From the IMG/VR virus record IMGVR_UViG_3300047546_003009: a stretch of 23,626 bases of DNA. One strand, given 5' to 3'. Under the pieces are notes generated by a model that saw only the letters and a program-made list of their open reading frames with translations, did no database searches and had not been told where the DNA came from. How positions within the stretch are numbered: position 1 is the first letter of the stretch; every line of letters begins with the position of its first letter. The position numbers and the translations under genes are program-made. This DNA is from a virus (Duplodnaviria > Heunggongvirae > Uroviricota > Caudoviricetes). This document shows, one piece after another, positions 10,582 to 23,478 of this stretch.

Positions 10582-10601
10582 ATTGTAAACCTTTTATTGT
10601 T

Positions 10602-10642
10602 AAAAAGAAGGTAGGTTGTTTGGATAATAAGGAACAACCTAC
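10602..10642 (-). terminator. terminator-like hairpin at the 3' end of the tmRNA coding piece
   Basis: GTAGGTTGTT/AACAACCTAC 10-bp stem followed by CTTCTTTTT on the minus strand. Confidence 0.7.
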
Positions 10643-10936
10643 AAATCCCCATCTAGCTTTTAGGCAGCCAGAGCAAACTTTTCGTCATTTGCGTTTATGG
10701 TTTTTGCTCTGCTTACGGCAGTCGCCTATCGTGCTGTCTGTTCCGTTACTCATTGCCCTGTCGAAACCTAGTCACCCCCATCAGAAGCATACTAACCACA
10801 TAGTCCGCAAGTGTAAGTTATTCCCTTTCGGGTGTCCTTGGCATACGGTGGGGTTCGAACCCAATGCTTTTGGTGGAGGTGGGGAGAATCGAACTCCCGT
10901 CCAGAACACCTTTTACTTTACTTCATACAGCAATAT
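10602..10936 (-). ncRNA. ssrA: tmRNA, circularly permuted two-piece gene (acceptor piece ~10936-10871, intervening segment 10870-10780, coding piece 10779-~10602)
   Basis: Acceptor end GGACGGGAGTTCGATTCTCCCCACCTCCACCA lies upstream of the 5' motif GGGGGTGACTAGGTTTCGACA. Stem GGGGGTG/CACCTCC has the G3-U70 pair. The tag frame at 10692-10660 reads ANDEKFALAA*. Confidence 0.93.
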
Positions 10937-10941
10937 TTGAT

Positions 10942-10949
10942 TATTTATA
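10942..10949 (-). promoter_or_regulatory. T4 late promoter TATAAATA driving the tmRNA gene
   Basis: Exact consensus directly upstream of the acceptor piece, abutting the upstream terminator tail. Confidence 0.75.
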
Positions 10950-10973
10950 AAAAAGGGCAGTGACGCCCTTTTT
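10950..10973 (-). terminator. rho-independent terminator after the DUF932 gene
   Basis: AAAAAGGGC-AGTGAC-GCCCTTTTT directly after the stop at 10974. Confidence 0.85.
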
Positions 10974-11933
10974 CTACGCAGCTTCAGCGTACTCAATCGC
11001 CAGATCAAGCGCTTTCATCTTGAGGTTACGGTTGAGACCAAACCACGAAGAAGTAAGGCGATTTTCAGCAGATTTACCAGCTTTGTGGTCGACAAAGTAT
11101 GTAACTGCGTTAAACGCTTGCCACCACGAACCCTTAGCAAATTCCGCACCAGGCTGGAGATCCAGAATACCAGGCTCACCACCAGAACCAAGCATAATCT
11201 CGGCAGTCTTTGACATCTCTTTACGGGACTCTTCTTTCTGCGTAAGAACAGGGAACAGTTCTTTCATGTAATCCTTAACAGTATCTTTTTTGTAACGTTT
11301 CTTACCAAGGAAAAGAGCGTTGTCTTTGTATTTACGAAGCTGATCACCGGCAATACCAAGAGCAAGTTTAACTTCCTGAGGATCAAACTCAGATCGGTGA
11401 TTAACCTTAACAGCCTTACGACCTTTTTCGTTCAAGGCCATAGTCAGCGTGTTGTTGCAGACAACACGAATCGGAGTGAAACGAACGTCAATCGACTGAC
11501 CCCACTTATGAGGATTGGTAAACATGAGGTAGCCTTCAACCTTATCGCCACCAAACACTTCGAAGCTGTCCTTAATTTTGGCAAGCGCCCAAACAATCTG
11601 ACCGTTCTTGAGAGAACCGGCCGTATGCATTTCCATGTCGCCGGCGTGCACATATTCATTAAAGAACTCAAACGCTTCGCTGTTCTGAACAGGCAGCCAG
11701 TCGTTCGTAACAACGTCGAGAATCGACTTGTCGGTGGAACGAACAAGAGCATGTTTACCAGTAAGGCGTTCTTCACCATCAACCTTGATGTAGGCAGGGA
11801 TCTTTTCAACCTGCCAATCGAGACCAGCAGTCTTCAACATTTGCTCCGGTGACAGATCGGCCGGGACAGATTTACCAAGACCGTGCCAAGGAGTCTCACC
11901 CGCGTACGCCATCGTTTCAACCATGTGTGCCAT
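10974..11933 (-). CDS. DUF932 / phage-plasmid-related protein
   Basis: Motifs MAYAGETPWHGLG, AGLDWQVEK, VQNSEAFEFF, TAGSLKNG, TPIRVVCNNTL and WWQAFNAVT. Confidence 0.85.
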   Translation of the reverse strand: MAHMVETMAYAGETPWHGLGKSVPADLSPEQMLKTAGLDWQVEKIPAYIKVDGEERLTGKHALVRSTDKSILDVVTNDWLPVQNSEAFEFFNEYVHAGDMEMHTAGSLKNGQIVWALAKIKDSFEVFGGDKVEGYLMFTNPHKWGQSIDVRFTPIRVVCNNTLTMALNEKGRKAVKVNHRSEFDPQEVKLALGIAGDQLRKYKDNALFLGKKRYKKDTVKDYMKELFPVLTQKEESRKEMSKTAEIMLGSGGEPGILDLQPGAEFAKGSWWQAFNAVTYFVDHKAGKSAENRLTSSWFGLNRNLKMKALDLAIEYAEAA

Positions 11934-11976
11934 AATGTAATTACCTCTTTAAAGTTAATTTGTCAGCTACAAGGTC

Positions 11977-12005
11977 ATTGTACAGTAAACTACTTTAAAA
12001 GTCAA
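11977..12005 (-). promoter_or_regulatory. sigma70-type early promoter for DUF932
   Basis: TTGACT-17 nt-TACAAT, then a GAGG ribosome-binding site. Confidence 0.78.
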
Positions 12006-12228
12006 CAGCTTTTTTTATCTGCTGAAAATAAGCATTTACAGCATAACGGTTTTCATTAACAAACCGTTCTGAACTTTGGACACGCAAATCATCAATTAAA
12101 TTGAAATATTCTTCACGATCAACCATTCCGCGCGCAAACAAAGAAGCGTAAATTTGAGCCCGAGTTGAAACAATAGAATATTGTTCAGGTTCGTTGAAAC
12201 ATTCGCGGGCAATTGTAAAAACATTCAT
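11995..12228 (-). CDS. hypothetical protein
   Basis: 77-aa ORF coupled to the exonuclease stop (ATGA). Confidence 0.65.
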   Translation of the reverse strand: MNVFTIARECFNEPEQYSIVSTRAQIYASLFARGMVDREEYFNLIDDLRVQSSERFVNENRYAVNAYFQQIKKAVDF

Positions 12229-12881
12229 TTACAAAAAACCTCTTTGACTCTAGGATAGAAACTTGTCGTCTTTTTAACGAACACTTGGGGCTGTTCGTTC
12301 TCCACACCAATAACAACAGCTATTCTAGGAACGTTGATATTATATAGTTCTTGAATCATTACTGCATACACTGTGCATTGAAGAAAATAATTTTCGATCC
12401 AGTCTTCCCGCTTTAACTTGGAAGAGGATTTAAAATCAACAACTGTATTCATACCATCAAACCTACAAAACAGGTCGCAGCGGCCCGCTGTCTTCAACAG
12501 ATGTGAGTATAGAGGAAACTCTTGTCCATAAACCTTTTCAACACGCTCATCAATAATTGGTTGAATCGATTTAAACAGATCGATAGTAGAGGGATTATAC
12601 TTAACGTGAAAGTCTTCTTCATTGTTAATATACTTCTCAACAATTGCATGAAGCTTTGTACCACGTGTCGAAGCCTGCGTTGTTATTTTCTGGGCCTGTT
12701 CTGGACCAACACGCTTACGCCACTCCATAATAGATTTCTTATTGAGAGCAGATAAGATTGTTGTCACAGATTTATATCGTTCCCCGGTGGGGAGCGTATA
12801 GTAACGCTCTCCATCCAGTTCTTCAGAAACTAATTCAATAGAATCGAAATGTTTCTCATGATCAAAATACTTTGTTCTCAT
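12225..12881 (-). CDS. PD-(D/E)XK exonuclease (RecB/Cas4-like), typical PhoH neighbour in T4-like phages
   Basis: Motifs YKSVTTILS, RGTKLH, AGRCD, VVDFKSS and YFLQCTVYA. Confidence 0.85.
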   Translation of the reverse strand: MRTKYFDHEKHFDSIELVSEELDGERYYTLPTGERYKSVTTILSALNKKSIMEWRKRVGPEQAQKITTQASTRGTKLHAIVEKYINNEEDFHVKYNPSTIDLFKSIQPIIDERVEKVYGQEFPLYSHLLKTAGRCDLFCRFDGMNTVVDFKSSSKLKREDWIENYFLQCTVYAVMIQELYNINVPRIAVVIGVENEQPQVFVKKTTSFYPRVKEVFCK

Positions 12882-13608
12882 ATCCTAGTTTGTCTTTTGT
12901 AATAATATACTGTTTAACCATATCAGAGCGAAGAATATCATCTTCTTTAAATTCAATGTGATCAAAGCAAGACATTTCCTCCAGTATCTTCATAAAATGT
13001 TTCAGACCATCTCTCTCTGTTTGTTTTGAAAGATCGGCCTGTCTATAATCACCGCAGAACAACAACTGACAATTTGAACCCATTCTAGTAATAATACTAT
13101 CAAGCTCATGGAAGTTCATGTTGTTACACTCATCAACAACTACTATTGCATTGTTAATTGTTATGCCACGTATAAATGATGTGGTAATGAAGTCAATTAC
13201 TTTATAACGCTTGAGTATTTCATAAGCGTCGTCCCTACCAAACAACTCACTACAAATTCCTCTGTATGGTGCTTCGTATGTTTTAATCTTATCATACTCG
13301 TCACCAGGTAGAAAACCAATATCACGTGTAGGTACGACACTGCGAACAATTACGACGCTACTATGAAGGGAGGATTTTTTCATTACGCTATCAAGGCCAA
13401 GATACAGGGACATAAATGTTTTACCTGTACCAGCAAGACCATGAAGAAGCATGTTTCTACCTTGGTTGAAACTATCAAATGCGCGCTGCTGATTATCTGT
13501 GAGAGGAGTTATGTTGTTTAAATGAAGGTTGGTGTGGGGGAGCTTGATACCGTTGACAAAAACACTGGATGGCTGTTTTTTACTTGCTTTTTTAATTGCT
13601 TTTCTCAT
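12862..13608 (-). CDS. phoH: PhoH-family ATPase
   Basis: Walker A GLAGTGKT, IGFLPG, FIRG, VVDECNN and CGDYRQAD. Confidence 0.93.
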   Translation of the reverse strand: MRKAIKKASKKQPSSVFVNGIKLPHTNLHLNNITPLTDNQQRAFDSFNQGRNMLLHGLAGTGKTFMSLYLGLDSVMKKSSLHSSVVIVRSVVPTRDIGFLPGDEYDKIKTYEAPYRGICSELFGRDDAYEILKRYKVIDFITTSFIRGITINNAIVVVDECNNMNFHELDSIITRMGSNCQLLFCGDYRQADLSKQTERDGLKHFMKILEEMSCFDHIEFKEDDILRSDMVKQYIITKDKLGYENKVF

Positions 13609-13614
13609 TGACCC

Positions 13615-13851
13615 TCAGAACGTGTTAATTTTGCTCTTATAATGCGTGCTCTTGATATCCTTGAGTCTATCCCTAAACGCATCGTCCGGTTTTTTCAACC
13701 CGAGCCTGATAGGATCACCGATTGGTGGTGCAGCAGAAAAGAATCTTTCTAGGTGCGGGTTGTTTTTAACAAAGTCATCATATTCTGACATCCGCATCAC
13801 ACGTTCAACTATTTCACCAGTTTCTACATTACGAAATTCATACGTCGGCAT
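13615..13851 (-). CDS. FmdB-like small regulatory protein (zinc-ribbon-like, without cysteines)
   Basis: N-terminus MPTYEFRNVETGE and motif GDPIRLG..KPDDAFRDRL; adjacent to phoH. Confidence 0.6.
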   Translation of the reverse strand: MPTYEFRNVETGEIVERVMRMSEYDDFVKNNPHLERFFSAAPPIGDPIRLGLKKPDDAFRDRLKDIKSTHYKSKINTF

Positions 13852-13854
13852 AAT

Positions 13855-14127
13855 TTACTTTTCTGCTTTTTTCTTACGCGATTGTTTTTTCTTTGCTTTG
13901 GGTTTTGTCTCTACTTTTTCCTCTTCAACTGTGAGAGTTGGAATCTCTTGAGGAATGTTGTAGTTGTATGAGTAGCTTTCTTCGAGAGTGAGATTTTGTT
14001 GAGGGTCCTCATCCTTTCGACTATTCCAATCATACTTTTTATCTGTATACCAACCAACAAACTTTAAAAGTACATCTTCAATTTTATCAGCTAGTTTTGA
14101 ATCCCAAAACAGACGCTTTCTATACAT
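13855..14127 (-). CDS. hypothetical protein with basic C-terminus
   Basis: 90-aa ORF tightly packed in the operon. Confidence 0.6.
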   Translation of the reverse strand: MYRKRLFWDSKLADKIEDVLLKFVGWYTDKKYDWNSRKDEDPQQNLTLEESYSYNYNIPQEIPTLTVEEEKVETKPKAKKKQSRKKKAEK

Positions 14128-14138
14128 TAAGGTTCCCC

Positions 14139-14324
14139 TTACTTGTAGTTGTTGTAATCATATTCTGATAGATCATCCAGTCTATCAAAATCCTGGGTTT
14201 TAATGTATTTATCAATACTCCGAAAAGATTGTCGGTCTTGTCTGCTTTTCTGGTATTTAAAGTAGTGACCGTTGTTTTCGTAATCGTCAGCAACTTTTGA
14301 CGACTTCTTAAACGTCTTGCTCAT
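14139..14324 (-). CDS. hypothetical protein
   Basis: 61-aa ORF with an ATGA overlap to the upstream gene. Confidence 0.6.
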   Translation of the reverse strand: MSKTFKKSSKVADDYENNGHYFKYQKSRQDRQSFRSIDKYIKTQDFDRLDDLSEYDYNNYK

Positions 14325-14758
14325 GCTTTCTGACTCTCCTTGACAGGAATTAGATCGGGGAATGCTTCATTAATAATTTTTGCCGTGATTCCCTTAAACG
14401 GCAATTTTTTATCTTTCATACAGTTGACAAGTTTTGCATCTTTAGGGTCGATCGACTCAATTAACTGAATGTATAACATTTCTCGCTTAAGGTTTGTTAG
14501 GTTTGGATTACCACCTTCAAGGAACAAATAGAGACGACGAACCTCGGTGTATAGTCTTGCTTCCTGGTCAACGTACGGACATGGTTTAAAAGGAGGTTCA
14601 CCCTTAGGTAGAGCAAATTTAATTTGAGGGTCAAGAGCATACTTTAGCACCGTGCGCAAAGCACCGTTATCGTTCCTGCGTAACAAATCAATCTTCTCAG
14701 CTGGTGTCTTACATTTAGACACCTGCTCCAAAATCTCATACATGCTTTGTTTTTTCAT
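14321..14758 (-). CDS. conserved T4-like hypothetical protein found next to RNase H
   Basis: Motifs LPKGEPPF, LYLFLEGGN, KREMLYIQLIE and EAFPDL. Start set at ATG 14758 (TAATG overlap). Confidence 0.75.
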   Translation of the reverse strand: MKKQSMYEILEQVSKCKTPAEKIDLLRRNDNGALRTVLKYALDPQIKFALPKGEPPFKPCPYVDQEARLYTEVRRLYLFLEGGNPNLTNLKREMLYIQLIESIDPKDAKLVNCMKDKKLPFKGITAKIINEAFPDLIPVKESQKA

Positions 14759-15627
14759 TAAAATTCCCCAACACATTCCATAAGGTTTTTAAGCTTCTTA
14801 TTAATAAAGTAATTAAACATCTTACCTCTCTTTATAGTGCATCCGTCTTTCTCTTGCTCAAATACTGCAATCGCTTTTGAAACAATATCGTTGGGAACAA
14901 ATGAAAGGTCAATCAGCTGTTGGTTACGCATGTAACCACGCTTGATGTCTTCAGGCTGATCATCAATCCCATTCTCAATAACATTGGAGATGAGTTTGCT
15001 GGTTACCTTTCTTTGGCGAACGCCACTCACAAAGCAATCATCACTAGACAAGATGTTAGGCACACCATCTCCACGATCACCTTTGATAATCTGCTCTTTA
15101 ATAAACTTTGACGGGTCACTATGAGCAATCATTTTATTCTTGATTGGATCGTACTGTTTTACGTTAGCGTATTGTTGTAATTGAACAAAGTCTTTGTCAC
15201 CAGAAACAATAACAATATCTTCAGCTGTGTTGTTATTTAGCTCGACGCCGTATTTTGATACGAGTGACGCAATGATATCGTCAGCCTCAGCATGGTCTAG
15301 GTGAATGACAATATAGGGAAAGTTCTCTTTGAGCTCGTCACGGATCTTGTTAAGAAGATCAAATACACCAACCCAATCAAAGTCAGAAGCTTCGCGGTCT
15401 TTCTTGCGATTGGCCTTGTAGTTTGGGAATATGTTTTTTCGCCAGTTGTTTTTACCATCACAAGCAATAACAACGGTTTGATGTTCCTTGAACATCTGGC
15501 GAACGTTGCGAATTTTATTGAGGATCATGTGCCGTACAAGATCCTCTTCGAGTTTGACGTTTGTGTGGTTACCAATCTGAGCCATTATATTTGAGATGGC
15601 GATCTGATTGTAGTCAATGATAATCAT
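14758..15627 (-). CDS. rnh: T4-type RNase H (5'-3' exonuclease)
   Basis: Motifs MIIIDYNQ, WRKNIFPNYKANR, EADDIIA, SGDKDFVQL and GDRGDGVPN. Start set at 15627. Confidence 0.93.
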   Translation of the reverse strand: MIIIDYNQIAISNIMAQIGNHTNVKLEEDLVRHMILNKIRNVRQMFKEHQTVVIACDGKNNWRKNIFPNYKANRKKDREASDFDWVGVFDLLNKIRDELKENFPYIVIHLDHAEADDIIASLVSKYGVELNNNTAEDIVIVSGDKDFVQLQQYANVKQYDPIKNKMIAHSDPSKFIKEQIIKGDRGDGVPNILSSDDCFVSGVRQRKVTSKLISNVIENGIDDQPEDIKRGYMRNQQLIDLSFVPNDIVSKAIAVFEQEKDGCTIKRGKMFNYFINKKLKNLMECVGEF

Positions 15628-15628
15628 T

Positions 15629-16570
15629 TTAGTATTGAATCTTCTTTTCGTTAAGAATCTGCTTAAGGAACAGCGTCCATTGCTGCTTACGCATTTCCCA
15701 TCCATAGAAGATATTACTATAACTTTGTTGATTAATCAACCGCAATTTGATTTGTTCGTTGTGAACGTTTTGAATTGCCGCGTCAAGTTGGTGATAGAAC
15801 AGCATTGCGTGATCACGCTTGTCCTCAAGGAACTGATACATCCATGTCCAGTTCGCTGCCGTTTCGTAGAGTGCACCGTAGTTTGGATGAACGCAGATTA
15901 GACCAGCAGACATTGCCTCCATAAGTGCACGGCAGCTCGTCTCCATCCAAATAGATGGATATGCAAAAATATGAGCACTAGCAACAGCATCACGAACAAC
16001 CGGTTGTTCGGCAAAGCCATGGTAGTTCACTTTAGGATTTGCTTTAAGCATGTCGAACACTTGTTGGTACTGTTTATCACGTTCTTCAAAGTTGTACATC
16101 TTAAAGCTTGAGAAAACATCAAGAACGATGTTATCGTGCTTTTCACAAAGTTTATCAAACACAGGAGCAAGAAGCTCAAGACCACGATGAGGTGTAGTGT
16201 GGTAGATAATTCGAATTACAGAATCATCTTTCTCTTTGGAAGGGATTGGATTGATTGCGTTTTGAATGACAACACACTTGTGCCATGGAATGCCATAGTA
16301 GCTGACAAACTGTTGCATTTGCCAGTTGGAGACGAATACAAGCTTTTCGTATTGATTATAACCACCTGCCTTAAGGTGTTCACACTCAGGATCACCTACA
16401 AGATCGTGAGCCCAATAGATGGGAATCTTTCCCGCTTCGTGACCTCGAAAGCGAGAAGGAACAATATGAAAATGCTTCCAGATGTTTTCATCAATGTGGC
16501 TTTTGAACTCCTCAATTAAGAGCTCTGTGCCACCCTTTGCACCTTTGTTAACAATATCAAGACCCATCAT
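15629..16570 (-). CDS. GT-B fold glycosyltransferase
   Basis: Motifs GGTE, FVSNWQ, YHTTPHRGLELL and YPSIWMETSCRALMEAMSAG (EX7E motif). Confidence 0.85.
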   Translation of the reverse strand: MMGLDIVNKGAKGGTELLIEEFKSHIDENIWKHFHIVPSRFRGHEAGKIPIYWAHDLVGDPECEHLKAGGYNQYEKLVFVSNWQMQQFVSYYGIPWHKCVVIQNAINPIPSKEKDDSVIRIIYHTTPHRGLELLAPVFDKLCEKHDNIVLDVFSSFKMYNFEERDKQYQQVFDMLKANPKVNYHGFAEQPVVRDAVASAHIFAYPSIWMETSCRALMEAMSAGLICVHPNYGALYETAANWTWMYQFLEDKRDHAMLFYHQLDAAIQNVHNEQIKLRLINQQSYSNIFYGWEMRKQQWTLFLKQILNEKKIQY

Positions 16571-16854
16571 GCCACCATGTCAATTCGTTTGACTGAATCA
16601 ATTTTAAAAGAACGCCAAGCACTCTTTTCAACATCCCACACAGCAAACACATCATCATTTGCTTCTTTCTTACGGTCGGTCTTTTGCTCGTAAGGAACAA
16701 CAATGTTTTCTTGTAACGTACACTTCATGACACGTTCCGTACCATCTTTTTTGGTAAACGTCACATTTACAGTATTCTCTTTAAGAACACTAGACAGCCA
16801 TTTACGAAAAGACGGTTTATCTTCTTTACTCCACTCCAATGCGCTCATTATCAT
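16567..16854 (-). CDS. SH3/Sm-like beta-barrel protein (WYL_2/DUF2693-like)
   Basis: Motifs VTFTKKDGTERVMKCTL and VWDVEKSAWRSFK. Confidence 0.75.
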   Translation of the reverse strand: MIMSALEWSKEDKPSFRKWLSSVLKENTVNVTFTKKDGTERVMKCTLQENIVVPYEQKTDRKKEANDDVFAVWDVEKSAWRSFKIDSVKRIDMVA

Positions 16855-17191
16855 ACCTCACAATAAAAGTTTTCAGTTTTTGACGACTTGCTTGATCTAT
16901 CATGTTTTGGGTTCCATTAGAAACCCCATCCCAGAAACATATTAATGCATCACCATATTCAGCCATTTGCTTATTACGAATAGGACCTGCTGCCTTACCA
17001 TACTTTTTCCAGTCGGCAGGAAATCTTTTTATCGGGATGTTATATTTTTCTGCGTATGTGATTGCAAGTGTATCTGCACCATCAGCACATCCAGAAACAA
17101 TTTCAGTTATCGGCCACTCGATCTTGTTTAGATATTTCTCAAGAAGATTGAAGTCGCTAAATGTTCTCGTTCCGGCTATTATTAGTTTCAT
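16826..17191 (-). CDS. YspA-like SLOG-family protein (DUF2493)
   Basis: Motifs IIAGTR, IVSGCADGAD, GKAAGPIRNKQM and FWDGVSNGT. Start set at 17191. Confidence 0.82.
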   Translation of the reverse strand: MKLIIAGTRTFSDFNLLEKYLNKIEWPITEIVSGCADGADTLAITYAEKYNIPIKRFPADWKKYGKAAGPIRNKQMAEYGDALICFWDGVSNGTQNMIDQASRQKLKTFIVRYDNERIGVE

Positions 17192-17726
17192 TTTCAACAC
17201 CAAGCTTGCAAATAAAGTAACTATCGATTAGGTCTGAAGATGGATTCCATTGTTTTGATGTCATAGAGAGTGTATGTTTAATATCAAACCCAGTTTCAGC
17301 GATAAAGCTTTCTTCCATCTTCTGTTTATCAGCATTACCTTTACCTGTAGCAAACTTCTTAATCACAGTTGGAGGCACTGCTAGGTAATCGATGTGATTT
17401 TTCCACAGCAGAAATTTACAAATGCCACCGTTTTCGGCAATATGAAACACCTTGCCTTTTGAACCATAACTATAGTCTTCTATAAAGACTTTTTCAACAC
17501 TTTGAGATTTGCAGATATCAACAATCCATGTAGCGATGTTATTGTATCGCTCGCTATCACAAGTATATTCTGGAAACACCTCGCCATGAAGCTTTGGGTG
17601 GACGTAAAGATATTTGTCTTTGGAAGTGAGGAAGTAAAACTCACATTTATCAAACTCAAATTTGTCACCACGAAACAGGCACAGCGCAGGTGATGTCATT
17701 GATAGATCAACACCTAGTATAATCAT
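17157..17726 (-). CDS. RuvC-like Holliday junction resolvase
   Basis: Motifs ILGVDLSMTSP, FIEDYSY, IKKFATGKGNADK and DLIDSY. Confidence 0.8.
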   Translation of the reverse strand: MIILGVDLSMTSPALCLFRGDKFEFDKCEFYFLTSKDKYLYVHPKLHGEVFPEYTCDSERYNNIATWIVDICKSQSVEKVFIEDYSYGSKGKVFHIAENGGICKFLLWKNHIDYLAVPPTVIKKFATGKGNADKQKMEESFIAETGFDIKHTLSMTSKQWNPSSDLIDSYFICKLGVENETNNSRNENI

Positions 17727-17774
17727 AAGAACCCTCCTACTCTTATATAGGAAGGTTCTTTCACTAACTGCTAC

Positions 17775-17891
17775 TTACATAATCAATAGAGCAAGTGCTA
17801 AAATAAACCACCATGCAGACCACCCATTGTGAACGAGGTATGCGGTTCCTGCTAGAACAAATATGTTCCAGATTAGGTGTTGTATTTTCAT
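17775..17891 (-). CDS. small membrane protein (38 aa)
   Basis: Manual translation MKIQHLIWNIFVLAGTAYLVHNGWSAWWFILALALLIM*; ATGA overlap with the ligase stop. Confidence 0.55.
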   Translation of the reverse strand: MKIQHLIWNIFVLAGTAYLVHNGWSAWWFILALALLIM

Positions 17892-19186
17892 TTAATCGCT
17901 TTCGATGAATCCGCTTCAGACTTATCGTGACGAATCTCAACAAAGATCGGAAGGAACAGGCTATCCCCACCAGTCTTCTTGTCTTTGATTCGTGCATTAT
18001 ATTTTACCGAAACAACGCTGCCAATGCAGTCGGGTTTAATAGAATCACGATCAGCATCAGTATAGCCCGAACCAATCGAGACTCGGACAACACTATCGCT
18101 AGACTCAGCAACAAGAGCACCGAGCCTACCCACATTTTTGCCAGTTCCTTCTTCCCACCCAACAATCTTGAGATCGCACTCAAGTTCTCCTTTGAATTTT
18201 ATTTGATGTTTGACCCGCTTTGACTCCCACGGACTATCAATGTTTTTGAGAATCGTTCCTTCCTGACCTTCACCAAGAAACTTCTCAAAGATTTTCTTTG
18301 CAGACTCAAGGTCATCCACAATCTCATTCCACACCGTTGAAATCTTATCCGACTCAACGCGAGTGACGGAATCACGAACTTCCTGAAGGCGAGCCTTGTA
18401 GGGAATAGTGCATTTACCAGTCACCCAGTTTTTGTACGGAATGCAATCCCACAGAGTTGCACCAACCCTTGCACACTCGTTGTCAGTGATTGTTCCTTTC
18501 AGCGATTTCGAAAGGATGCCGTTAGAAGTTTGACGGGGGAGAAATTGATAGCGATCTTCATCAAACACAAGAAGCTCCCCGTCAAACACACATTCGCGGC
18601 CAGCAGCAAGCTCGACAAACTCTTTCTCGAGGTGGCCCCGAAGGTTGATCTCTTTTCCGTTCCTCGAACGGAACTCGACGGTGTTGTTTCGGCAGATCGC
18701 ATTGAACCGCATACCATCAAGTTTAAGCTGGACATATGCGGGAAATTTGATATTGGCAATTGCCTTATCATCGTACTGTGCGCACAACATGACAGGAAAT
18801 TCCATGATCAGCTTCGGCCAGATCTTGTTGACGGTTTTTTCAGAAACGCCGCATCGAAGATCCTTTTCAATGATTCGGGTGATTACGATTGCATCTTCAG
18901 GTTCAACCTCGGAGAGGAGGAGCGAGAGGTATTCGATTGCACTATTGCCAGTGACTTTTCGGGATGAAAGTTGAGACAATTTCTCAAGTGCCTTCTCGAG
19001 CGTCAGCATCACAGGGCGATCAATTTCGTACTTGGGGATTTTCCGAATGTAGTAGTTCGTCATCGGGCACAGTGCAGCGATGAGAACTTTTTTGAGAAGT
19101 TCGTTGTCTTTCTCGCGCCGGAGGATTGCTTCTTTTTCCAGGCGAGACGCTGTGCTACCAAGTTCATCGAGGATTTCGTAGATCAC
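17888..19186 (-). CDS. gp30: ATP-dependent DNA ligase gp30
   Basis: Motif I QLKLDGMR, FDGEL, EGTILK, KRVKHQIKFK and SLFLPIF. Confidence 0.95.
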   Translation of the reverse strand: MIYEILDELGSTASRLEKEAILRREKDNELLKKVLIAALCPMTNYYIRKIPKYEIDRPVMLTLEKALEKLSQLSSRKVTGNSAIEYLSLLLSEVEPEDAIVITRIIEKDLRCGVSEKTVNKIWPKLIMEFPVMLCAQYDDKAIANIKFPAYVQLKLDGMRFNAICRNNTVEFRSRNGKEINLRGHLEKEFVELAAGRECVFDGELLVFDEDRYQFLPRQTSNGILSKSLKGTITDNECARVGATLWDCIPYKNWVTGKCTIPYKARLQEVRDSVTRVESDKISTVWNEIVDDLESAKKIFEKFLGEGQEGTILKNIDSPWESKRVKHQIKFKGELECDLKIVGWEEGTGKNVGRLGALVAESSDSVVRVSIGSGYTDADRDSIKPDCIGSVVSVKYNARIKDKKTGGDSLFLPIFVEIRHDKSEADSSKAIK

Positions 19187-19220
19187 AAAACGCTCCAGTT
19201 ATCACTAAATTTGAACTACA

Positions 19221-19249
19221 ATTATACTGGAAAAATCAAATCAAGTCAA
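19221..19249 (-). promoter_or_regulatory. sigma70-type promoter for DNA ligase
   Basis: TTGACT-17 nt-TATAAT, then a GGAG RBS before the GTG start. Confidence 0.8.
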
Positions 19250-19672
19250 CAGTTTTAGTTCGACGGATGCCTCAGCGAACATTTCCTTTGTCAATTCAAA
19301 TGACTTTTGCCACCGCTCTGTGTCACAGTATGGGGCGCAAACAGTTTTGATTCCTGCCTGGATGACAATTGCTGCACATCTGGAGCATGGCATGAAAGGC
19401 CATGTATACAGTGTTGTACCGCACAGTGGTTCTCTTGCAAAGACGATTGCATTAATTTCACCGTGAACGATCATATCGAGCTTTTGGTCACGGTTAGTCA
19501 GTCTTTCATCAATGTCTCGAACGCCTCTTGCAAACCCGTTGTATCCGGTTGAGATGATTCTTCTTTGGTCGTCGACAATCACTGCACCAACTTTTGTTGA
19601 AGGGTCTTTAGACCACTGTGCAATGTGTTCGGCGAGTTCGAGGAACCTTTTGTCCCACTTATTATTATCCAT
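19241..19672 (-). CDS. cd: dCMP deaminase
   Basis: Motifs WSKDPSTKVGAVIV, TGYNG, HGEINAI and PCSRC. Confidence 0.92.
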   Translation of the reverse strand: MDNNKWDKRFLELAEHIAQWSKDPSTKVGAVIVDDQRRIISTGYNGFARGVRDIDERLTNRDQKLDMIVHGEINAIVFAREPLCGTTLYTWPFMPCSRCAAIVIQAGIKTVCAPYCDTERWQKSFELTKEMFAEASVELKLLT

Positions 19673-19751
19673 AGCGAACGATCAGATATGTCATCATGAT
19701 TGCGATTGACGAGAAGATTGTCACCCATTCAACAACGGTGAATTGAAACAT
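19665..19751 (-). CDS. small hydrophobic peptide (28 aa)
   Basis: Manual translation MFQFTVVEWVTIFSSIAIMMTYLIVRYG*; fills the gap between its neighbours. Confidence 0.45.
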   Translation of the reverse strand: MFQFTVVEWVTIFSSIAIMMTYLIVRYG

Positions 19752-19755
19752 CCAC

Positions 19756-19977
19756 TCAGGAAGTTTTTGAATCAAGTTGTCTTTCCAGTTCATTGATTCT
19801 CCTTTCGGCTTCAATCAATTTTAGTTCCAGGTCTCTACACACATTCGAGTAGACGAATCCTTTTTTTGAAATCTTCGTTTCACAGTCCCAATACCATCCA
19901 CCGGTCTGGTTTTGTCTAGAAGACCACATGAACATTTCATTGGAATCTGTGATAGGGGTTTTAGTATTCATTCTCAT
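19756..19977 (-). CDS. hypothetical protein with C-terminal coiled coil
   Basis: 73-aa ORF directly downstream of a sigma70 promoter. Confidence 0.6.
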   Translation of the reverse strand: MRMNTKTPITDSNEMFMWSSRQNQTGGWYWDCETKISKKGFVYSNVCRDLELKLIEAERRINELERQLDSKTS

Positions 19978-19990
19978 TGCTCGCCTAGCT

Positions 19991-20018
19991 ATTATACATA
20001 TAATTTAGGAAATGTCAA
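19991..20018 (-). promoter_or_regulatory. sigma70-type promoter
   Basis: TTGACA-16 nt-TATAAT. Confidence 0.65.
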
Positions 20019-20030
20019 CAGGGGAGTCGA

Positions 20031-20201
20031 TTGGCGCAGATTATTTTTCTCTCACAGATCTACAAAGAGCGGATTGAGAAACAACGAGAGCTCGACTACT
20101 ACAGGGAGCAGATCGAGCTGTTGTACAAGAGGGTTGAGATTGTTCAACGAGAGATTGATCTCACAGAAAAGATCATTTCAATCATTGAACACGAGCTCTA
20201 G
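20031..20201 (+). CDS. small coiled-coil protein (56 aa), lone plus-strand gene
   Basis: Not in the ORF track. GGGGAG RBS, then TTG start: MAQIIFLSQIYKERIEKQRELDYYREQIELLYKRVEIVQREIDLTEKIISIIEHEL*. Confidence 0.65.
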   Translation: MAQIIFLSQIYKERIEKQRELDYYREQIELLYKRVEIVQREIDLTEKIISIIEHEL

Positions 20202-20602
20202 TCCTTCACGGTGATTTTCCAGCACCATTTGTTTTTCCACGCAAGAAACGCTTGGACAGCAAATGATTGATTTTTTCCCAGCTTTGAAGCTCGTTGTCTT
20301 GCAGTGACGATCAGCACAAACAACAAACTGATCGCGACAACAATAAACACGAGTATCGCTGCAATCACGGCAGGCTCATCGGGATGAATCCATTGCATTG
20401 TAGCAATCATTGCAGCAATCCAAGCAAGCATGTCGGCAAACGATGCGACAATACCACAAACAACTGCAACACCAACACACAACACAAACAATGACCAAGC
20501 AACATCGCGCGTGTAGCCACAGATGTCATCATTCGGCTGGATGCAGATCTTTTCAACAAGCCGGTAGTGCCATGAATTTCGAGAAACAACAATTTCTTTC
20601 AT
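20198..20602 (-). CDS. hypothetical membrane protein
   Basis: 134 aa with two long hydrophobic segments. Confidence 0.7.
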   Translation of the reverse strand: MKEIVVSRNSWHYRLVEKICIQPNDDICGYTRDVAWSLFVLCVGVAVVCGIVASFADMLAWIAAMIATMQWIHPDEPAVIAAILVFIVVAISLLFVLIVTARQRASKLGKNQSFAVQAFLAWKNKWCWKITVKD

Positions 20603-20605
20603 TTT

Positions 20606-20926
20606 TCAACTCCCAGTGATTAGAACAACGGTGTCACCCCGACAACGAAACCCTTCAATGAACACATGATGACGGTCACCAGACTCTCGAATGCACCTGT
20701 CACACGCCTTCCACACATCCAAATACGAAGTTCCTTCAATACGAGCACTTACTTCCTTGTCACCCCAATGATCCCTGTATACAACGGTTTTACAGTGGGT
20801 AAACGGATGAGCGCTCTCAATACTATCACACCCAGCAACAGACCACACGGAACAAAAATCGTTCTCCTTGCGAATATTGTTGAGGTAATCAATCAGTTTC
20901 ATCATTTCATCACTTTCATAAGACAT
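20606..20926 (-). CDS. hypothetical protein
   Basis: Start reset to ATG 20926 (MSYESDE...) behind GGAG; C-terminal ESGDRHHVFIEGF. Confidence 0.7.
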   Translation of the reverse strand: MSYESDEMMKLIDYLNNIRKENDFCSVWSVAGCDSIESAHPFTHCKTVVYRDHWGDKEVSARIEGTSYLDVWKACDRCIRESGDRHHVFIEGFRCRGDTVVLITGS

Positions 20927-20934
20927 CGGTGTTT

Positions 20935-21105
20935 TCTCCGGAAAATTTTCTAAAAAAAAATTTTTTGGAAAATTATACAAAACCAGCGAAGTTTTTTGGG
21001 GGAAACCTTTTAGAACAAATTTGAGCGGGGGAGCGGGGGTTCGGTTATATAAGCACCCCCGGCCTACTTTTTTGCACCCCCGGGCAGTGTCTTGCCCGGG
21101 GGTCC
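20935..21105. repeat. non-coding A-tract / G-tract / palindrome cluster
   Basis: GAAAATTTTC, A9T6, GGAAAATT twice, GAGCGGGGG twice, four G5 runs, and an 11-bp perfect inverted repeat at 21076-21103. Confidence 0.7.
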
Positions 21106-21109
21106 ACAA

Positions 21110-21265
21110 TCACCGAAACACGGCGAAATGTTTCATTGCATCCTCCAGAGTGTAGCCGTAGAGGTGCTTCAACACCTGGCACTGATCACCAACCCGGCAG
21201 ATCTCGTACTCGTAGTTGCCGATGGAGAACAGCTTGAGTGAACCGCGAGAGCAGATGAAAGACAT
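21110..21265 (-). CDS. hypothetical early protein
   Basis: AAGGAG RBS and ATG at 21265 (MSFICSRG...), 51 aa. Confidence 0.6.
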   Translation of the reverse strand: MSFICSRGSLKLFSIGNYEYEICRVGDQCQVLKHLYGYTLEDAMKHFAVFR

Positions 21266-21279
21266 TGTGTAGCTCCTTG

Positions 21280-21465
21280 TTATTTGTAGTACTTTGCGAC
21301 CGGGACACCGAGGGCGCACAGCTGGTCAGCAGCTTCGTCGAACCGCTTCATGTTCTTGCGGAGCTCATCGCTGTCGTTCGTCTCCTGGATCATTCTGTTC
21401 CACACGAGCAGCGAGTTGATGTGCATGGAGATTTCCTCTGCAGTCTTTTTCTGAACCTTGGCCAT
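21280..21465 (-). CDS. hypothetical early protein
   Basis: 61 aa with a GGAG RBS, downstream of a promoter. Confidence 0.65.
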   Translation of the reverse strand: MAKVQKKTAEEISMHINSLLVWNRMIQETNDSDELRKNMKRFDEAADQLCALGVPVAKYYK

Positions 21466-21494
21466 TTCGGGCTCCGTTCGATTAGTGAGCCCCC

Positions 21495-21523
21495 AGTATA
21501 TACGAGAACGAACTGGAGGTCAA
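21495..21523 (-). promoter_or_regulatory. early promoter repeat
   Basis: TTGACC-17 nt (containing AGTTCGTTCT)-TATACT. Confidence 0.75.
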
Positions 21524-21552
21524 CAGGGAAGATTGCTTTTAGAATCAGGGAG

Positions 21553-22002
21553 TTAGAGAGTGACGCTTGCAGGGCCAAACAGCTGTTCCATCACCGCGGT
21601 CGGGCCAAAATACGACCACCGGCCTTCCCGGTCACCACCCTTGTAGTAGTCCCAGATGCCGCACCGGACAGTCTCGCCGTTGAGCTCCACGGTGAATCCC
21701 CACGAATAGGCAACCTTCGAAGTGTCATCCGGAGCATTCTGCGGGAAACCCAGGATCTGTTCGATCTCTTTCGGCCGGACATTGATCAGGCCACCCATCC
21801 GATGATCACCAGGAACAGCACAAGGCTTCACCTGGAGAATTTGGGCGGCAGTGAGTTGCTCCGGAATCTGCTCGACAGTCAGCCCGTTGAGATCAAGCTG
21901 CGCATTGCGGTCTGCAGCAGTGATCCATTGAGCAACCCGGGCACGCGCGATGGTTTCAGTCGGTGCATCGAGATCAGCTTCCACGGTGATTTTGTATTTC
22001 AT
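21553..22002 (-). CDS. hypothetical early protein
   Basis: Start reset to ATG 22002 (MKYKITVEAD...) behind AGGA; 149 aa. Confidence 0.65.
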   Translation of the reverse strand: MKYKITVEADLDAPTETIARARVAQWITAADRNAQLDLNGLTVEQIPEQLTAAQILQVKPCAVPGDHRMGGLINVRPKEIEQILGFPQNAPDDTSKVAYSWGFTVELNGETVRCGIWDYYKGGDREGRWSYFGPTAVMEQLFGPASVTL

Positions 22003-22027
22003 CTTGGTGTCCTGTATCGTAGGAAAG

Positions 22028-22156
22028 TTAGCCGAAGTACATCTGGGTCGCCAGGAACCCGGCAATGAACAGAAGCGCACAGAACGCTCCCGCGTAGAAG
22101 AACATCATGTTCTCCCGGTCAAGTTCCCGTTTGACGCGAAGTTCCCGTTCGGTCAT
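22028..22156 (-). CDS. small membrane protein (42 aa)
   Basis: Manual translation MTERELRVKRELDRENMMFFYAGAFCALLFIAGFLATQMYFG* with an AGGAG RBS. Confidence 0.6.
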   Translation of the reverse strand: MTERELRVKRELDRENMMFFYAGAFCALLFIAGFLATQMYFG

Positions 22157-22184
22157 CTCTTAGCTCCTAGTGAAGTATGAACCC

Positions 22185-22213
22185 ACTATACTGCAGTTTG
22201 AACTACTTGTCAA
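22185..22213 (-). promoter_or_regulatory. early promoter repeat
   Basis: TTGACA-17 nt (containing AGTTCAAACT)-TATAGT. Confidence 0.78.
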
Positions 22214-22367
22214 CAGGTTTGTTGACGATTTTTGCGCAAAGATTCCACGTCATCCCCATCACCGTCATCGCCAGAGTGCGATCTCCGGCCGGCAGACCGT
22301 TGATGTAGTCCAGCAGTTCGGTGCTGGTAGCAGGCGTGTGGAACAAACCGACAGGGGTCAATTTCAT
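22203..22367 (-). CDS. hypothetical early protein
   Basis: Start reset to ATG 22367 (MKLTPVGLF...) behind GGAG; 54 aa. Confidence 0.6.
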   Translation of the reverse strand: MKLTPVGLFHTPATSTELLDYINGLPAGDRTLAMTVMGMTWNLCAKIVNKPVDK

Positions 22368-22368
22368 T

Positions 22369-22581
22369 TTATTGCTCTCCATAGAGGTCGACCGTTTCAA
22401 TGTTAGAAGAAAATACGTTGCTTTTCTGAGTTTCTGCGACGTGACTGCGGCCGCGGGGGCACACAAACTCCATCACGTCTCTGCCTTGAATGTCTTCTTC
22501 ACAGTTGAGAAACTCAACGTCTGTCGTCCTGTGCCACATATCGCACACATAGCAACGCACAAAGTATACTTTGGTCATCAC
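22369..22581 (-). CDS. small putative zinc-binding protein
   Basis: CYVCxxxH near the N-terminus plus a distal FVCP; ATGA overlap. Confidence 0.6.
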   Translation of the reverse strand: MMTKVYFVRCYVCDMWHRTTDVEFLNCEEDIQGRDVMEFVCPRGRSHVAETQKSNVFSSNIETVDLYGEQ

Positions 22582-22832
22582 TCATCTCCATAGTAGCCAT
22601 AGTCTTCATCCGTGCCAAACCCCGCAGACGCCATCGCAGAGTCGAAGTCACCGTCCATCGAATCGTTGTAGTCGTCCCCATCATCTTCCTCGATGAGGTC
22701 GATGTAGTCGACCTTCAGGTTGCCGAAATCTTCCTGGAACAGCTCCCGAGCATGATCAAAGCTCCGGGCATACAGTTCACATTCATGTTCAGCACCGTGT
22801 TCAGCAGTGAAGTAGAAGCGATACAGGTTCAT
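22578..22832 (-). CDS. highly acidic early protein
   Basis: C-terminus DDGDDYNDSMDGDFDSAMASAGFGTDEDYGYYGDE; AAGGA RBS. Confidence 0.7.
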   Translation of the reverse strand: MNLYRFYFTAEHGAEHECELYARSFDHARELFQEDFGNLKVDYIDLIEEDDGDDYNDSMDGDFDSAMASAGFGTDEDYGYYGDE

Positions 22833-22833
22833 G

Positions 22834-22920
22834 TTAGTCCTTCAGCAGTTTAACGATCACAGGGCCCGCAGCAGAAACAAACACCAGGAAAATCGCAGCG
22901 ATGACATTGATATCGAACAT
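22834..22920 (-). CDS. small hydrophobic peptide (28 aa)
   Basis: Manual translation MFDINVIAAIFLVFVSAAGPVIVKLLKD* with an AAGGGA RBS directly after a promoter. Confidence 0.55.
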   Translation of the reverse strand: MFDINVIAAIFLVFVSAAGPVIVKLLKD

Positions 22921-22949
22921 TTCAGTCCCTTTCGTCAGTTGATGAAGCC

Positions 22950-22978
22950 AGTATACAACGGTTCGAACTAAAGGTCAA
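22950..22978 (-). promoter_or_regulatory. early promoter repeat
   Basis: TTGACC-17 nt (containing AGTTCGAACC)-TATACT. Confidence 0.8.
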
Positions 22979-23151
22979 CAGTCAGATTCTTCCATCGCAC
23001 GCTCGAGAACTTCGAACTCCCGCTTGAAATCCTCTTCAGTCCAGCTAGAAACGTCATTGCGCGGGCGAATACCATACGCATCCTTGTACATATCGGAGTA
23101 GATTTGGTGGTATTGCTCGAGAATCGTCATCTCTTCCCACGGCTTGAACAT
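22975..23151 (-). CDS. hypothetical early protein
   Basis: Start reset to ATG 23151 (MFKPWEE...) behind GAGG; contains YSDMYKDAYGIRPR. Confidence 0.7.
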   Translation of the reverse strand: MFKPWEEMTILEQYHQIYSDMYKDAYGIRPRNDVSSWTEEDFKREFEVLERAMEESDC

Positions 23152-23182
23152 CGTTTTTCCCTCTTTGTTAACTGTTAGGACC

Positions 23183-23211
23183 ACTATACAACAGTTCGAA
23201 CTAGAAGTCAA
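23183..23211 (-). promoter_or_regulatory. early promoter repeat
   Basis: TTGACT-17 nt (containing AGTTCGAACT)-TATAGT. Confidence 0.8.
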
Positions 23212-23332
23212 CATGTTTAACTCGGTGTTTCTCGTGGCGTTTGTACTGTTTCTTCATCGCACATACCCGCAAACGGTACTTCGGAGTGCGCAAATCCTTG
23301 TGAACCTGCGATTGCTTACGCCTGTACGACAT
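23201..23332 (-). CDS. small basic protein resembling alternative ribosome-rescue factor ArfA
   Basis: GAGG RBS and ATG at 23332: MSYRRKQSQVHKDLRTPKYRLRVCAMKKQYKRHEKHRVKHVDF*. The pattern LxxPx[FY]RxRVxxxKK..YxRxxKH matches ArfA. Confidence 0.55.
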   Translation of the reverse strand: MSYRRKQSQVHKDLRTPKYRLRVCAMKKQYKRHEKHRVKHVDF

Positions 23333-23459: not shown

Positions 23460-23478
23460 TTTTCTCTCCAAAAAACCC

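What the first reader, a model, noticed from the sequence alone, without database searches (positions are those of the whole stretch)
10602..23332. Candidate system: staged phage control of ribosome rescue (early ArfA-like protein plus late tmRNA)
Seen: two possible non-stop-ribosome factors in one window under different promoter classes. The ArfA-like ORF is behind a sigma70 early promoter (23479-23507); the tmRNA is behind TATAAATA. No smpB is visible in the window, so host SmpB would be needed unless it is encoded elsewhere. Inference: the phage may free ribosomes stalled on degraded host mRNA early and provide tagging quality control late. This could counter host defences that cleave mRNA, tRNA or tmRNA.
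Basis: inference. Interest (0 to 1): 0.75.

Follow-up and report, generated by a model that had tools for sequence, protein, structure and literature searches.

The report
Phage tmRNA and ArfA-like mini-protein
An uncultured T4-like freshwater phage carries two real ribosome-rescue genes, a two-piece tmRNA and a 43-residue shortened relative of the bacterial rescue factor ArfA. The two are inherited independently across phages, so they are not a linked "system".

Summary
Both elements exist at the stated coordinates. The permuted tmRNA (10601-10983, minus strand; Rfam 143.7 bits; tag ANDEKFALAA) lies about 10 nt behind TATAAATA. This kind is already published for aquatic T4-like phages (PMC9004378).

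The 43-aa ORF (23201-23332, minus strand) is a real gene, with 5 synonymous and 3 non-synonymous changes against its closest relative. It is a true but divergent ArfA homologue:
- Its family aligns with ArfA at hhalign probability 92%, E 6.6e-7, and 0 of 300 column shuffles come close.
- It is 50% identical to a Pfam-qualified ArfA ORF in Roseobacter phage CRP-212, differing mainly by deletion of the GKG loop.
- Relatives fall into Pfam DUF7230.
- It has its own stop codon and no arfA-style non-stop design.

Coupling is not supported:
- 17 of 20 marker-selected relatives have the tmRNA, but only 2 have the mini-protein.
- Three complete genomes have the tmRNA without the mini-protein.
- Acinetobacter phages Acj61 and ZZ1 have the mini-protein without any tmRNA.
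- In genomes with both, the genes lie 12-64 kb apart.

SmpB is absent from 8 complete or near-complete relatives, so host SmpB is presumably used. Earlier notes of this scan already describe the phage ArfA-like/DUF7230 family on other DNA.

The parts
10601..10983 (-). Permuted (two-piece) tmRNA gene with its leader. The acceptor piece ends in ...CACCUCCACCA (about 10932-10871). An intervening segment follows (about 10870-10780), then the coding piece starting GGGGGUGA (from about 10779).
   Evidence: Rfam RF01850 128.9 bits and RF04321 143.7 bits. ARAGORN tmRNA*. The fold pairs GGGGGUG with CACCUCC, including G3-U70.
10660..10692 (-). Tag reading frame: GCA resume codon, ANDEKFALAA, then UAA.
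   Evidence: ARAGORN. The same tag pattern ANDE[KRQ..]FALAA was found in at least 120 bacterial genomes, mostly Burkholderiales.
10942..10949 (-). TATAAATA, a T4-type late promoter motif about 10 nt before the tmRNA 5' end. It lies just after the terminator hairpin of the upstream DUF932 gene.
   Evidence: 3 copies in the window, all on the minus strand directly before a gene. NATAAATA lies at the matching distance in 12 of 33 distinct relatives.
10603..10642 (-). Hairpin plus T-run after the tmRNA coding piece (a likely terminator).
   Evidence: Read directly. It is paired in the fold.
23201..23332 (-). 43-aa basic mini-protein (P0001), a loop-less ArfA homologue of the DUF7230-related phage family. 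It has its own TAG stop.
   Evidence: (5 synonymous and 3 non-synonymous changes against L001).
23316..23459 (-). 47-aa ORF (P0002) of unknown function. It is the first gene of the same early transcription unit, and its end overlaps the start of P0001.
   Evidence: It is conserved in L001. No family hit.
23479..23507 (-). Sigma-70-type early promoter, TTGACC-17 nt-GATAGT, with an AGTTCGAAC box in the spacer.
   Evidence: It is conserved in L001, where the -10 reads TATAGT.
23183..23211 (-). Next early promoter (TTGACT-17 nt-TATAGT). Its -35 hexamer overlaps the last codons and the stop of P0001.

Best explanation
The window comes from an uncultured T4-like myovirus, probably of freshwater Burkholderiales. 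It carries two separate accessories for rescuing ribosomes stalled at the 3' end of broken mRNAs.

(1) A permuted two-piece tmRNA. It is transcribed from a late-type promoter and has a G3-U70 acceptor stem and CCA end, as needed for alanine charging. Its tag matches that of the presumed hosts. It must use host SmpB, AlaRS and the host tag-directed proteases.

(2) An early-expressed 43-residue protein that is a homologue of ArfA lacking the GKG of the KGKGS loop. It keeps the strand that in E. coli ArfA (Q27-E30) docks onto RF2, and it keeps the C-terminal Y-x-R-x-x-K-H tail that fills the empty mRNA channel. By analogy it should sense an empty channel and recruit host RF2 to release the peptide. 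Unlike bacterial arfA, it has a normal stop codon and no internal hairpin or terminator, so it is not switched off by trans-translation.

Shown: both genes are real, the homology holds, the promoter motifs are present, and the two genes are distributed independently. Inferred: expression timing, RF2 recruitment, use of host SmpB, and any benefit to the phage. The two genes are not a co-inherited or linked module.
For: tmRNA. The kind is published for related phages (PMC9004378). As in phage Melnitz, the tmRNA lies upstream of the gp33 late coactivator gene (9818-10111, PF16805).

Host tag match.

No SmpB in 8 complete or near-complete relatives that carry the tmRNA.

The mini-protein is coding: 5 synonymous and 3 non-synonymous changes against L001.

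Homology to ArfA:
- BLASTP 22.7 bits, E 1e-5 to a Pfam-qualified ArfA (P0125).
- 28.1 bits, E 1e-7, 50% identity to the CRP-212 ORF, which scores 33.3 bits on PF03889 (cut-off 25.5).
- HMMER found 6 small homologues. Five of their six invariant residues (R22, V23, Y30, R32, K35) align with identical ArfA residues (R28, V29, Y39, R41, K44).
- hhalign family against ArfA: 77-85% probability, rising to 92%, E 6.6e-7 with 60 family members.
- 300 column shuffles gave at most a score of 18.8, against 29.1 for the real alignment.
- Relatives score on DUF7230 (28.6-49 bits), and E. coli ArfA itself touches DUF7230.

RF2 strand and KH motif roles: PMC8012679.

Complex prediction with Variovorax RF2 gave weak support: score 0.34, best of 3 controls 0.01. 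The mark was reached by 58 of 80 solved complexes and 2 of 110 mismatched pairs, but at 0.60 or under by only 7 of those 80 and by both mismatches. The runs agree in at least 59% of contacts, and the partner's pLDDT is at least 46. ArfA-RF2 complexes are solved, so this may be memory of a like complex.

Independence.
Against: - P0001 itself scores on neither PF03889 nor PF23876, even at E 10.
- It lacks the invariant GKG of all 18 aligned ArfAs. At 43 aa it is shorter than the 46-48 residues seen ordered on the ribosome, and ArfA cut to 40 residues is inactive (PMC8012679).
- Five candidate host genomes with the same tag have no ArfA, so their RF2 has not co-evolved with an ArfA. ArfA/RF2 pairs are known to be species-specific (PMC8012679).
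- No expression, binding or activity data exist.
- The whole genome of this phage is not held, so smpB or arfB elsewhere in it cannot be excluded.
Confidence: 0.6

Rival explanations
1. One reading: a coupled, staged system. The early ArfA-like factor and the late tmRNA are selected together to manage ribosome rescue through infection, for example against host RNase-type defences.
For: The promoter motifs differ as claimed. The late motif before the tmRNA recurs in relatives. All 10 mini-protein-bearing IMG/VR records that are at least 55% complete also have a permuted tmRNA. One such genome (G481) additionally has an ArfB-like RF-1 domain ORF.
Against: The 10/10 is explained by the baseline: 17 of 20 marker-selected relatives have the tmRNA and only 2 have the mini-protein. 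Three complete genomes have tmRNA only. Acj61 and ZZ1 have the mini-protein only. Gene spacing varies from 12 to 64 kb. Melnitz is reported to express its tmRNA from an early promoter (PMC9004378), so late timing is not a conserved design.
Confidence: 0.12
2. The mini-protein is an inhibitor rather than a rescuer. It plugs the empty mRNA channel or A site and blocks host SmpB-tmRNA, ArfA/ArfB or RF2, as a host shut-off or anti-defence tool.
For: It keeps the channel-binding tail but has lost the GKG loop. It is shorter than active ArfA (PMC8012679). Expression appears unregulated and early. The presumed hosts lack ArfA.
Against: The most conserved block of the family (LRTPKYRMRV) corresponds to the RF2-docking strand region, which a simple channel plug would not need. 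There is weak complex support with RF2. A phage that also encodes its own tmRNA would be blocking it.
Confidence: 0.15
3. The likeness to ArfA is compositional or convergent. The ORF is a generic basic nucleic-acid-binding peptide unrelated to ribosomes.
For: It is very K/R/H-rich and short. P0001 has no direct Pfam, NCBIfam or PDB hit.
Against: None of 300 column shuffles approached the real score. The invariant residues coincide with those of ArfA. Intermediate forms exist that combine the family's N-terminal core with the KKGKGSY loop (CRP-212 ORF, PF03889 33.3 bits) or with a similar KKGRGTW loop (L295).
Confidence: 0.05
4. The phage tmRNA does not act in general rescue. It could be a decoy or spare for a host tmRNA that is cleaved or depleted, or a device to tag selected proteins for degradation.
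For: Both ideas are raised for Melnitz (PMC9004378). The tag mimics that of the presumed hosts.
Against: Nothing in the sequence separates these roles from ordinary trans-translation. All the canonical tmRNA elements are intact.
Confidence: 0.1

Closest known systems
Two-piece (permuted) tmRNA of aquatic T4-like phages, e.g. Methylophilales phage Melnitz and pelagimyophages (PMC9004378), and of the betaproteobacterial two-piece lineage (Rfam RF01850)
   Same: Permuted order of acceptor piece then coding piece. Host-like ANDE.FALAA tag. Position upstream of the gp33 late coactivator gene. No phage SmpB.
   Different: It sits behind a late-type TATAAATA motif, not the early promoter reported for Melnitz. 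No glutamine riboswitch was reported by Rfam at gathering threshold. The tag and the sequence are of beta type (best bacterial matches are Rhodocyclaceae), not alpha type.
ArfA (alternative ribosome-rescue factor A, YhdL, Pfam PF03889; E. coli structures on the ribosome with RF2, as reviewed in PMC8012679)
   Same: Small basic protein with an aligned core P-x-[FY]-R-x-R-V ... K-K ... Y-x-R-x-x-K-H. This includes the RF2-docking strand region and the KH motif of the channel tail.
   Different: It lacks the GKG of the invariant KGKGS loop. It is 43 aa, not about 55 active residues. It has its own stop codon and no RNase III hairpin or terminator, so there is no control by tmRNA. It is phage-borne. 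It scores below the PF03889 threshold.
Pfam DUF7230 (PF23876), e.g. Acj61p003 and ZZ1p0006 of T4-like Acinetobacter phages
   Same: Same length, same core (V-A-K-x-[LV]-R-T-P-x-[YF]-[RK]-M-[RQ]-V ... Y-x-R-K-x-K) and early-region location. Homologues of P0001 score up to 28.6 bits, and the Acinetobacter phage proteins 47-49 bits.
   Different: P0001 itself does not reach the model. The Acinetobacter forms end in K-F rather than K-H, and their phages have no tmRNA.
BrfA (Bacillus) and ArfT (Francisella), other small RF-dependent rescue factors (PMC8012679, PMC6881298)
   Same: Small basic peptides that sense the empty mRNA channel. BrfA shares the KH motif.
   Different: No sequence relationship to these was tested or seen here. 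BrfA is regulated by an internal terminator, which P0001 lacks.

Membership tests
tmRNA (permuted / two-piece) | Matches the curated covariance model above the gathering score | tested here: met
   RF04321 143.7 bits (gathering 47) and RF01850 128.9 bits (gathering 84), both full-length.
tmRNA (permuted / two-piece) | tRNA-Ala-like domain: acceptor stem with G3-U70, T-arm and an encoded CCA end | tested here: met
   GGGGGUG pairs with CACCUCC-ACCA, giving G3-U. The T-arm reads GGGAGUUCGAUUCUCCC.
tmRNA (permuted / two-piece) | Tag reading frame with an Ala resume codon, ending in a hydrophobic ..LAA and a stop | tested here: met
   ANDEKFALAA*.
tmRNA (permuted / two-piece) | Acts together with SmpB | not testable with these tools
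   No SmpB among the window ORFs scanned, nor in 8 complete or near-complete relatives. Use of host SmpB is inferred.
ArfA (PF03889) | Scores above the Pfam gathering threshold | tested here: not met
   No hit for P0001 even at E 10. One homologue reaches E 0.42. The related CRP-212 ORF passes at 33.3 bits.
ArfA (PF03889) | Invariant KGKGS loop | tested here: not met
   GKG is deleted in P0001 and in nearly all of its family.
ArfA (PF03889) | Detectable homology to the family by profile comparison | tested here: met
   hhalign 77-92% probability, E 1.9e-5 to 6.6e-7. None of 300 shuffles reached the real score. BLASTP E 1e-5 and 1e-7 to two Pfam-qualified ArfAs.
ArfA (PF03889) | RF2-docking strand (E. 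coli Q27-E30) and C-terminal KH channel motif | tested here: met
   L21-R22-V23-C24 and K35-H36 align with them. R22, V23 and K35 are invariant in the 8-member alignment and stay strongly conserved in the 60-member one. Their roles are taken from PMC8012679. This is sequence-level evidence only.
ArfA (PF03889) | Non-stop mRNA design (internal RNase III hairpin or terminator) giving repression by tmRNA | tested here: not met
   The ORF has its own TAG stop. The fold of the ORF region is no better than shuffles (z 0.04), and no terminator-like site lies in the ORF.
ArfA (PF03889) | Recruits RF2 to non-stop ribosomes and triggers peptide release | not testable with these tools
   There is only a weak complex-prediction pass with a Variovorax RF2: 0.34 against a best control of 0.01, possibly from memory of solved ArfA-RF2 complexes.
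DUF7230 (PF23876) | Scores above the Pfam gathering threshold (27 bits) | tested here: inconclusive
   P0001 gives no hit. Homologue P0129 scores 28.6 bits, while P0132 and P0133 fall below the cut-off. Acj61p003 and ZZ1p0006 score 47-49 bits. P0001 is linked to the family only through its homologues.
   (tmRNA 17/20 against mini-protein 2/20; 3 complete genomes with tmRNA only). (mini-protein only). Spacing is 12-64 kb.

The most novel reading that the evidence does not exclude
Large phages carry a widespread, unpublished branch of the ArfA family: loop-less, constitutively expressed and not gated by tmRNA. On this reading it installs RF2-dependent ribosome rescue in hosts that lack ArfA. In phages that also encode a tmRNA, the two act at different times of infection to keep ribosomes free while host and phage mRNAs are being degraded.
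Probability: 0.15. Interest if true: 0.75.

Novelty: new variant of a known kind. Interest (0 to 1): 0.5.

Why it matters
ArfA-type factors are thought to be narrowly distributed bacterial back-ups for trans-translation, and I found no paper describing a phage-encoded one.

Here a shortened ArfA branch turns out to be common in large phages. At least 293 IMG/VR loci carry it, and tblastn with a family member matched 63 Acinetobacter phage records; the two examined, Acj61 and ZZ1, are T4-like.

If it is active, it would show three things:
- phages manipulate ribosome rescue directly;
- the KGKGS loop is dispensable;
- rescue can be supplied without the tmRNA-gated regulation of arfA.

It is directly testable in culturable Acinetobacter phages. 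The tmRNA itself adds only one more example of a published phenomenon. The proposed two-gene system does not hold up.

Tried and rejected
- No whole genome is held for the window. An exact 33-nt pattern from the ORF is not in IMG/VR, and megablast of the tmRNA region against cultured phages found nothing.
- The word-indexed protein search found only one homologue of P0001 and only the query itself for the divergent ArfA. The exhaustive HMMER search was needed.
- The PDB sequence search with P0001 found nothing.
- The P0001 hit inside a 2365-aa protein (P0128) is a coiled-coil chance match.
- The order-level ArfA search around G071 held only one genome.
- My first scan for TATAAATA upstream of relatives' tmRNAs used ARAGORN starts and found 0 of 48, because ARAGORN's permuted-gene start lies upstream of the promoter. 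It was redone anchored on the T-loop. Several loci remained mis-anchored or unanchored, so 12 of 33 is a floor.
- I considered that the 6/6 (10/10) co-occurrence showed coupling. I rejected this after the baseline test.


Full report
**What the window is**

PHROGs and Pfam scans identify T4-type genes on both strands: baseplate and tail genes, gp2- and gp4-like genes, a gp5-like lysin, gp32, gp59, the gp33 late coactivator, ligase, dCMP deaminase, PhoH and exonucleases. The gp32 protein is 60-64% identical to those of cyanomyoviruses, Sinorhizobium phiM12-type phages and Pelagibacter phage HTVC008M. No close DNA match exists among cultured phages. No whole genome is held for the window.

**The tmRNA**

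- ARAGORN and two Rfam models agree on a full-length permuted tmRNA on the minus strand at 10601-10983.
- Direct reading shows an acceptor piece ending in CACCUCCACCA, an intervening segment of about 90 nt, and a coding piece starting GGGGGUGA. Together they form an acceptor stem with G3-U70. There is also a T-arm and the tag ANDEKFALAA followed by UAA.
- TATAAATA (10942-10949) lies between the terminator hairpin of the upstream DUF932 gene and the tmRNA 5' end.
- The same NATAAATA motif at the same distance recurs in 12 of 33 distinct relatives. This is a floor, because some loci were mis-anchored.
- Downstream come a cell-wall hydrolase gene and gp33. This resembles phage Melnitz, where ssrA lies directly upstream of the coactivator gene (PMC9004378).
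- That paper already reports 53 two-piece tmRNAs among phage isolates, and 17 among 47 Melnitz-like contigs. The kind is therefore published.
- A degenerate pattern for the tag found at least 120 bacterial genomes, mostly Burkholderiales: Polaromonas, Variovorax, Acidovorax, Hydrogenophaga, Polynucleobacter and Rhodocyclaceae. The bacterial tmRNAs most similar in sequence are from Rhodocyclaceae. A betaproteobacterial host is likely.

**The mini-protein is a real gene**

window:23201-23332 (-) encodes 43 residues. Its start overlaps the end of a 47-aa ORF that follows a sigma-70-type promoter at 23507-23479. Its stop overlaps the -35 hexamer of the next promoter of the same family. Against the one close relative (L001, a 3.3-kb Logan contig), the ORF shows 5 synonymous and 3 non-synonymous differences, which indicates purifying selection in this frame.

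**Is it ArfA-like?**

P0001 has no Pfam, NCBIfam or PDB hit by itself. Its BLASTP match to E. coli ArfA is only 15.4 bits. Four lines of evidence then converge.

1. Two Pfam-qualified ArfAs match it far better.
   - A 38-aa ArfA of a gammaproteobacterial MAG (PF03889, 36.9-39 bits) gives 22.7 bits, E 1e-5.
   - An unannotated 41-aa ORF in Roseobacter phage CRP-212 (PF03889 33.3 bits, cut-off 25.5) gives 28.1 bits, E 1e-7, with 50% identity over 36 residues. The only gap is the GKG of KKGKGSY.
2. An exhaustive HMMER search found six small homologues. Five of the family's six invariant residues (R22, V23, Y30, R32, K35) align with identical ArfA residues (R28, V29, Y39, R41, K44).
3. Profile-profile comparison with 18 diverse ArfAs gives 77-85% probability. 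With 60 family members it gives 92%, E 6.6e-7. In 300 column shuffles of the family alignment, the best score was 18.8 against 29.1 for the real one.
4. Family members score on Pfam DUF7230: P0129 at 28.6 bits, and Acinetobacter phage Acj61p003 and ZZ1p0006 at 47-49 bits. E. coli ArfA itself weakly touches DUF7230. One IMG/VR member (L295) keeps a KKGRGTW loop.

I conclude that P0001 is a divergent, loop-less member of an ArfA/DUF7230 superfamily that is common in phages, with 293 confirmed loci in IMG/VR from a single peptide pattern.

It fails formal ArfA membership on three features: the Pfam threshold, the KGKGS loop, and the non-stop mRNA design. On the last point, it has its own TAG stop, no significant structure (z 0.04) and no terminator in the ORF.

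According to the review PMC8012679, ArfA residues Q27-E30 dock onto RF2 by strand addition, and the KH motif contacts the mRNA channel. Both regions are retained. The same review notes that ArfA cut to 40 residues is inactive and that ArfA/RF2 pairs are species-specific, which are reasons for caution.

A complex prediction with a Variovorax RF2 gave only weak support. The score was 0.34 and the best of 3 controls 0.01. The mark was reached by 58 of 80 solved complexes and 2 of 110 mismatched pairs, but at 0.60 or under by only 7 of those 80 and by both mismatches. The runs agree in at least 59% of contacts, and the partner's pLDDT is at least 46. Because ArfA-RF2 complexes are solved, this may reflect memory of a like complex.

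**Is it a system?**

Co-occurrence and linkage were tested directly.

| Sample | Permuted tmRNA | Mini-protein |
|---|---|---|
| 18 mini-protein-bearing IMG/VR records of 50 kb or more | 11/18; 6/6 at ≥90% complete; 10/10 at ≥55% complete | present by selection |
| 20 records selected only by the DUF932 marker | 17/20; all 14 at ≥37% complete | 2/20 |
| 3 complete genomes with terminal repeats (G001-G003) | present | no mini-protein, no PF03889, no PF23876 |
| Cultured Acinetobacter phages Acj61 and ZZ1 | no standard or permuted tmRNA | clear family members |

- The 10/10 in the first row is explained by the baseline in the second row. The tmRNA is a clade-wide trait and the mini-protein is patchy.
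- tblastn with one family member matches 63 Acinetobacter phage records.
- In genomes that hold both genes they lie 12 to 64 kb apart (coordinates). In the window they are 12 kb apart and separated by DNA-metabolism genes.
Functional complementarity in phages that happen to have both genes remains possible but untested.

**SmpB and other factors**

SmpB is absent from three complete tmRNA-bearing relatives. It is also absent from five complete or near-complete genomes that have both genes. Host SmpB is therefore the likely partner. One of the latter five (G481) has an ArfB-like 135-aa ORF with an RF-1 domain. Five candidate host genomes with the same tag lack both PF03889 and PF23876. Only 3 of 300 sampled genomes of the class have ArfA. 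The phage protein would therefore bring a rescue route that the host probably lacks.

**Literature and earlier notes**

No paper in the searched library describes a phage-encoded ArfA or DUF7230. Earlier AI notes of this scan describe the same phage-borne loop-less ArfA-like/DUF7230 family on other DNA. I re-derived the homology and the Acinetobacter phage members here.

**Verdict**

The tmRNA is a new member of a published kind. The mini-protein is a new variant of ArfA. The "staged system" is not supported as a linked or co-inherited unit, and its timing rests on promoter motifs alone.

Noticed in passing
L306:301-426 (+), Roseobacter phage CRP-212, MZ892988.1 around 39070-39192: An unannotated 41-aa ORF scores as a true ArfA (PF03889 33.3 bits, cut-off 25.5). 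It lies in another frame inside the annotated 1203-aa gp38. It combines the phage-family N-terminal core with the KKGKGSY loop.
   Followed up: partly
G481:C1:38965-39249 (+), the IMG/VR record behind L301: A complete 170.6-kb phage genome holds the mini-protein and a permuted tmRNA, and also encodes a 135-aa ORF with an RF-1 (GGQ) domain (55.5 bits). This is ArfB-like in size.
   Followed up: no
window 21495-23507 (-): Five early-type promoters TTGACN-17 nt-TATA[GC]T share an AGTTCGAAC-like box at a fixed place in the spacer. There are 5 matches against 0.12 expected by chance. The box is conserved in L001. It could be an operator or a phage-specific promoter element.
   Followed up: partly
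window 22834-22920 (-) and about 23175 (-): Compared with L001, the window has an extra stretch of about 85 nt encoding a 28-aa hydrophobic peptide. It lacks a segment of about 125 nt that L001 has between an early promoter and the next gene. Small cassettes are swapped between identical promoters.
   Followed up: no
L009, L010, L012, L033, L074 (relatives): Arrays of 18-21 tRNA genes lie a few kb from the DUF932 gene in several relatives. In L009, L010, L012 and L033 they lie upstream, with the tmRNA downstream; in L074 they lie downstream and no tmRNA was called. The window itself has no tRNA gene.
   Followed up: no
window 16567-17203 (-): Adjacent small genes encode a WYL_2 Sm-like domain (PF10902, 64 bits) and a YspA/SLOG domain (PF10686, 53 bits). 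They lie among the DNA-metabolism genes.
   Followed up: no
L003, L004, L017 (relatives): ARAGORN misses tmRNA-like sequences that blastn with the window's tmRNA finds downstream of the DUF932 gene. ARAGORN-based counts of phage permuted tmRNAs are therefore underestimates. Rfam RF04321 found the one in the whole record behind L017 (G484).
   Followed up: partly
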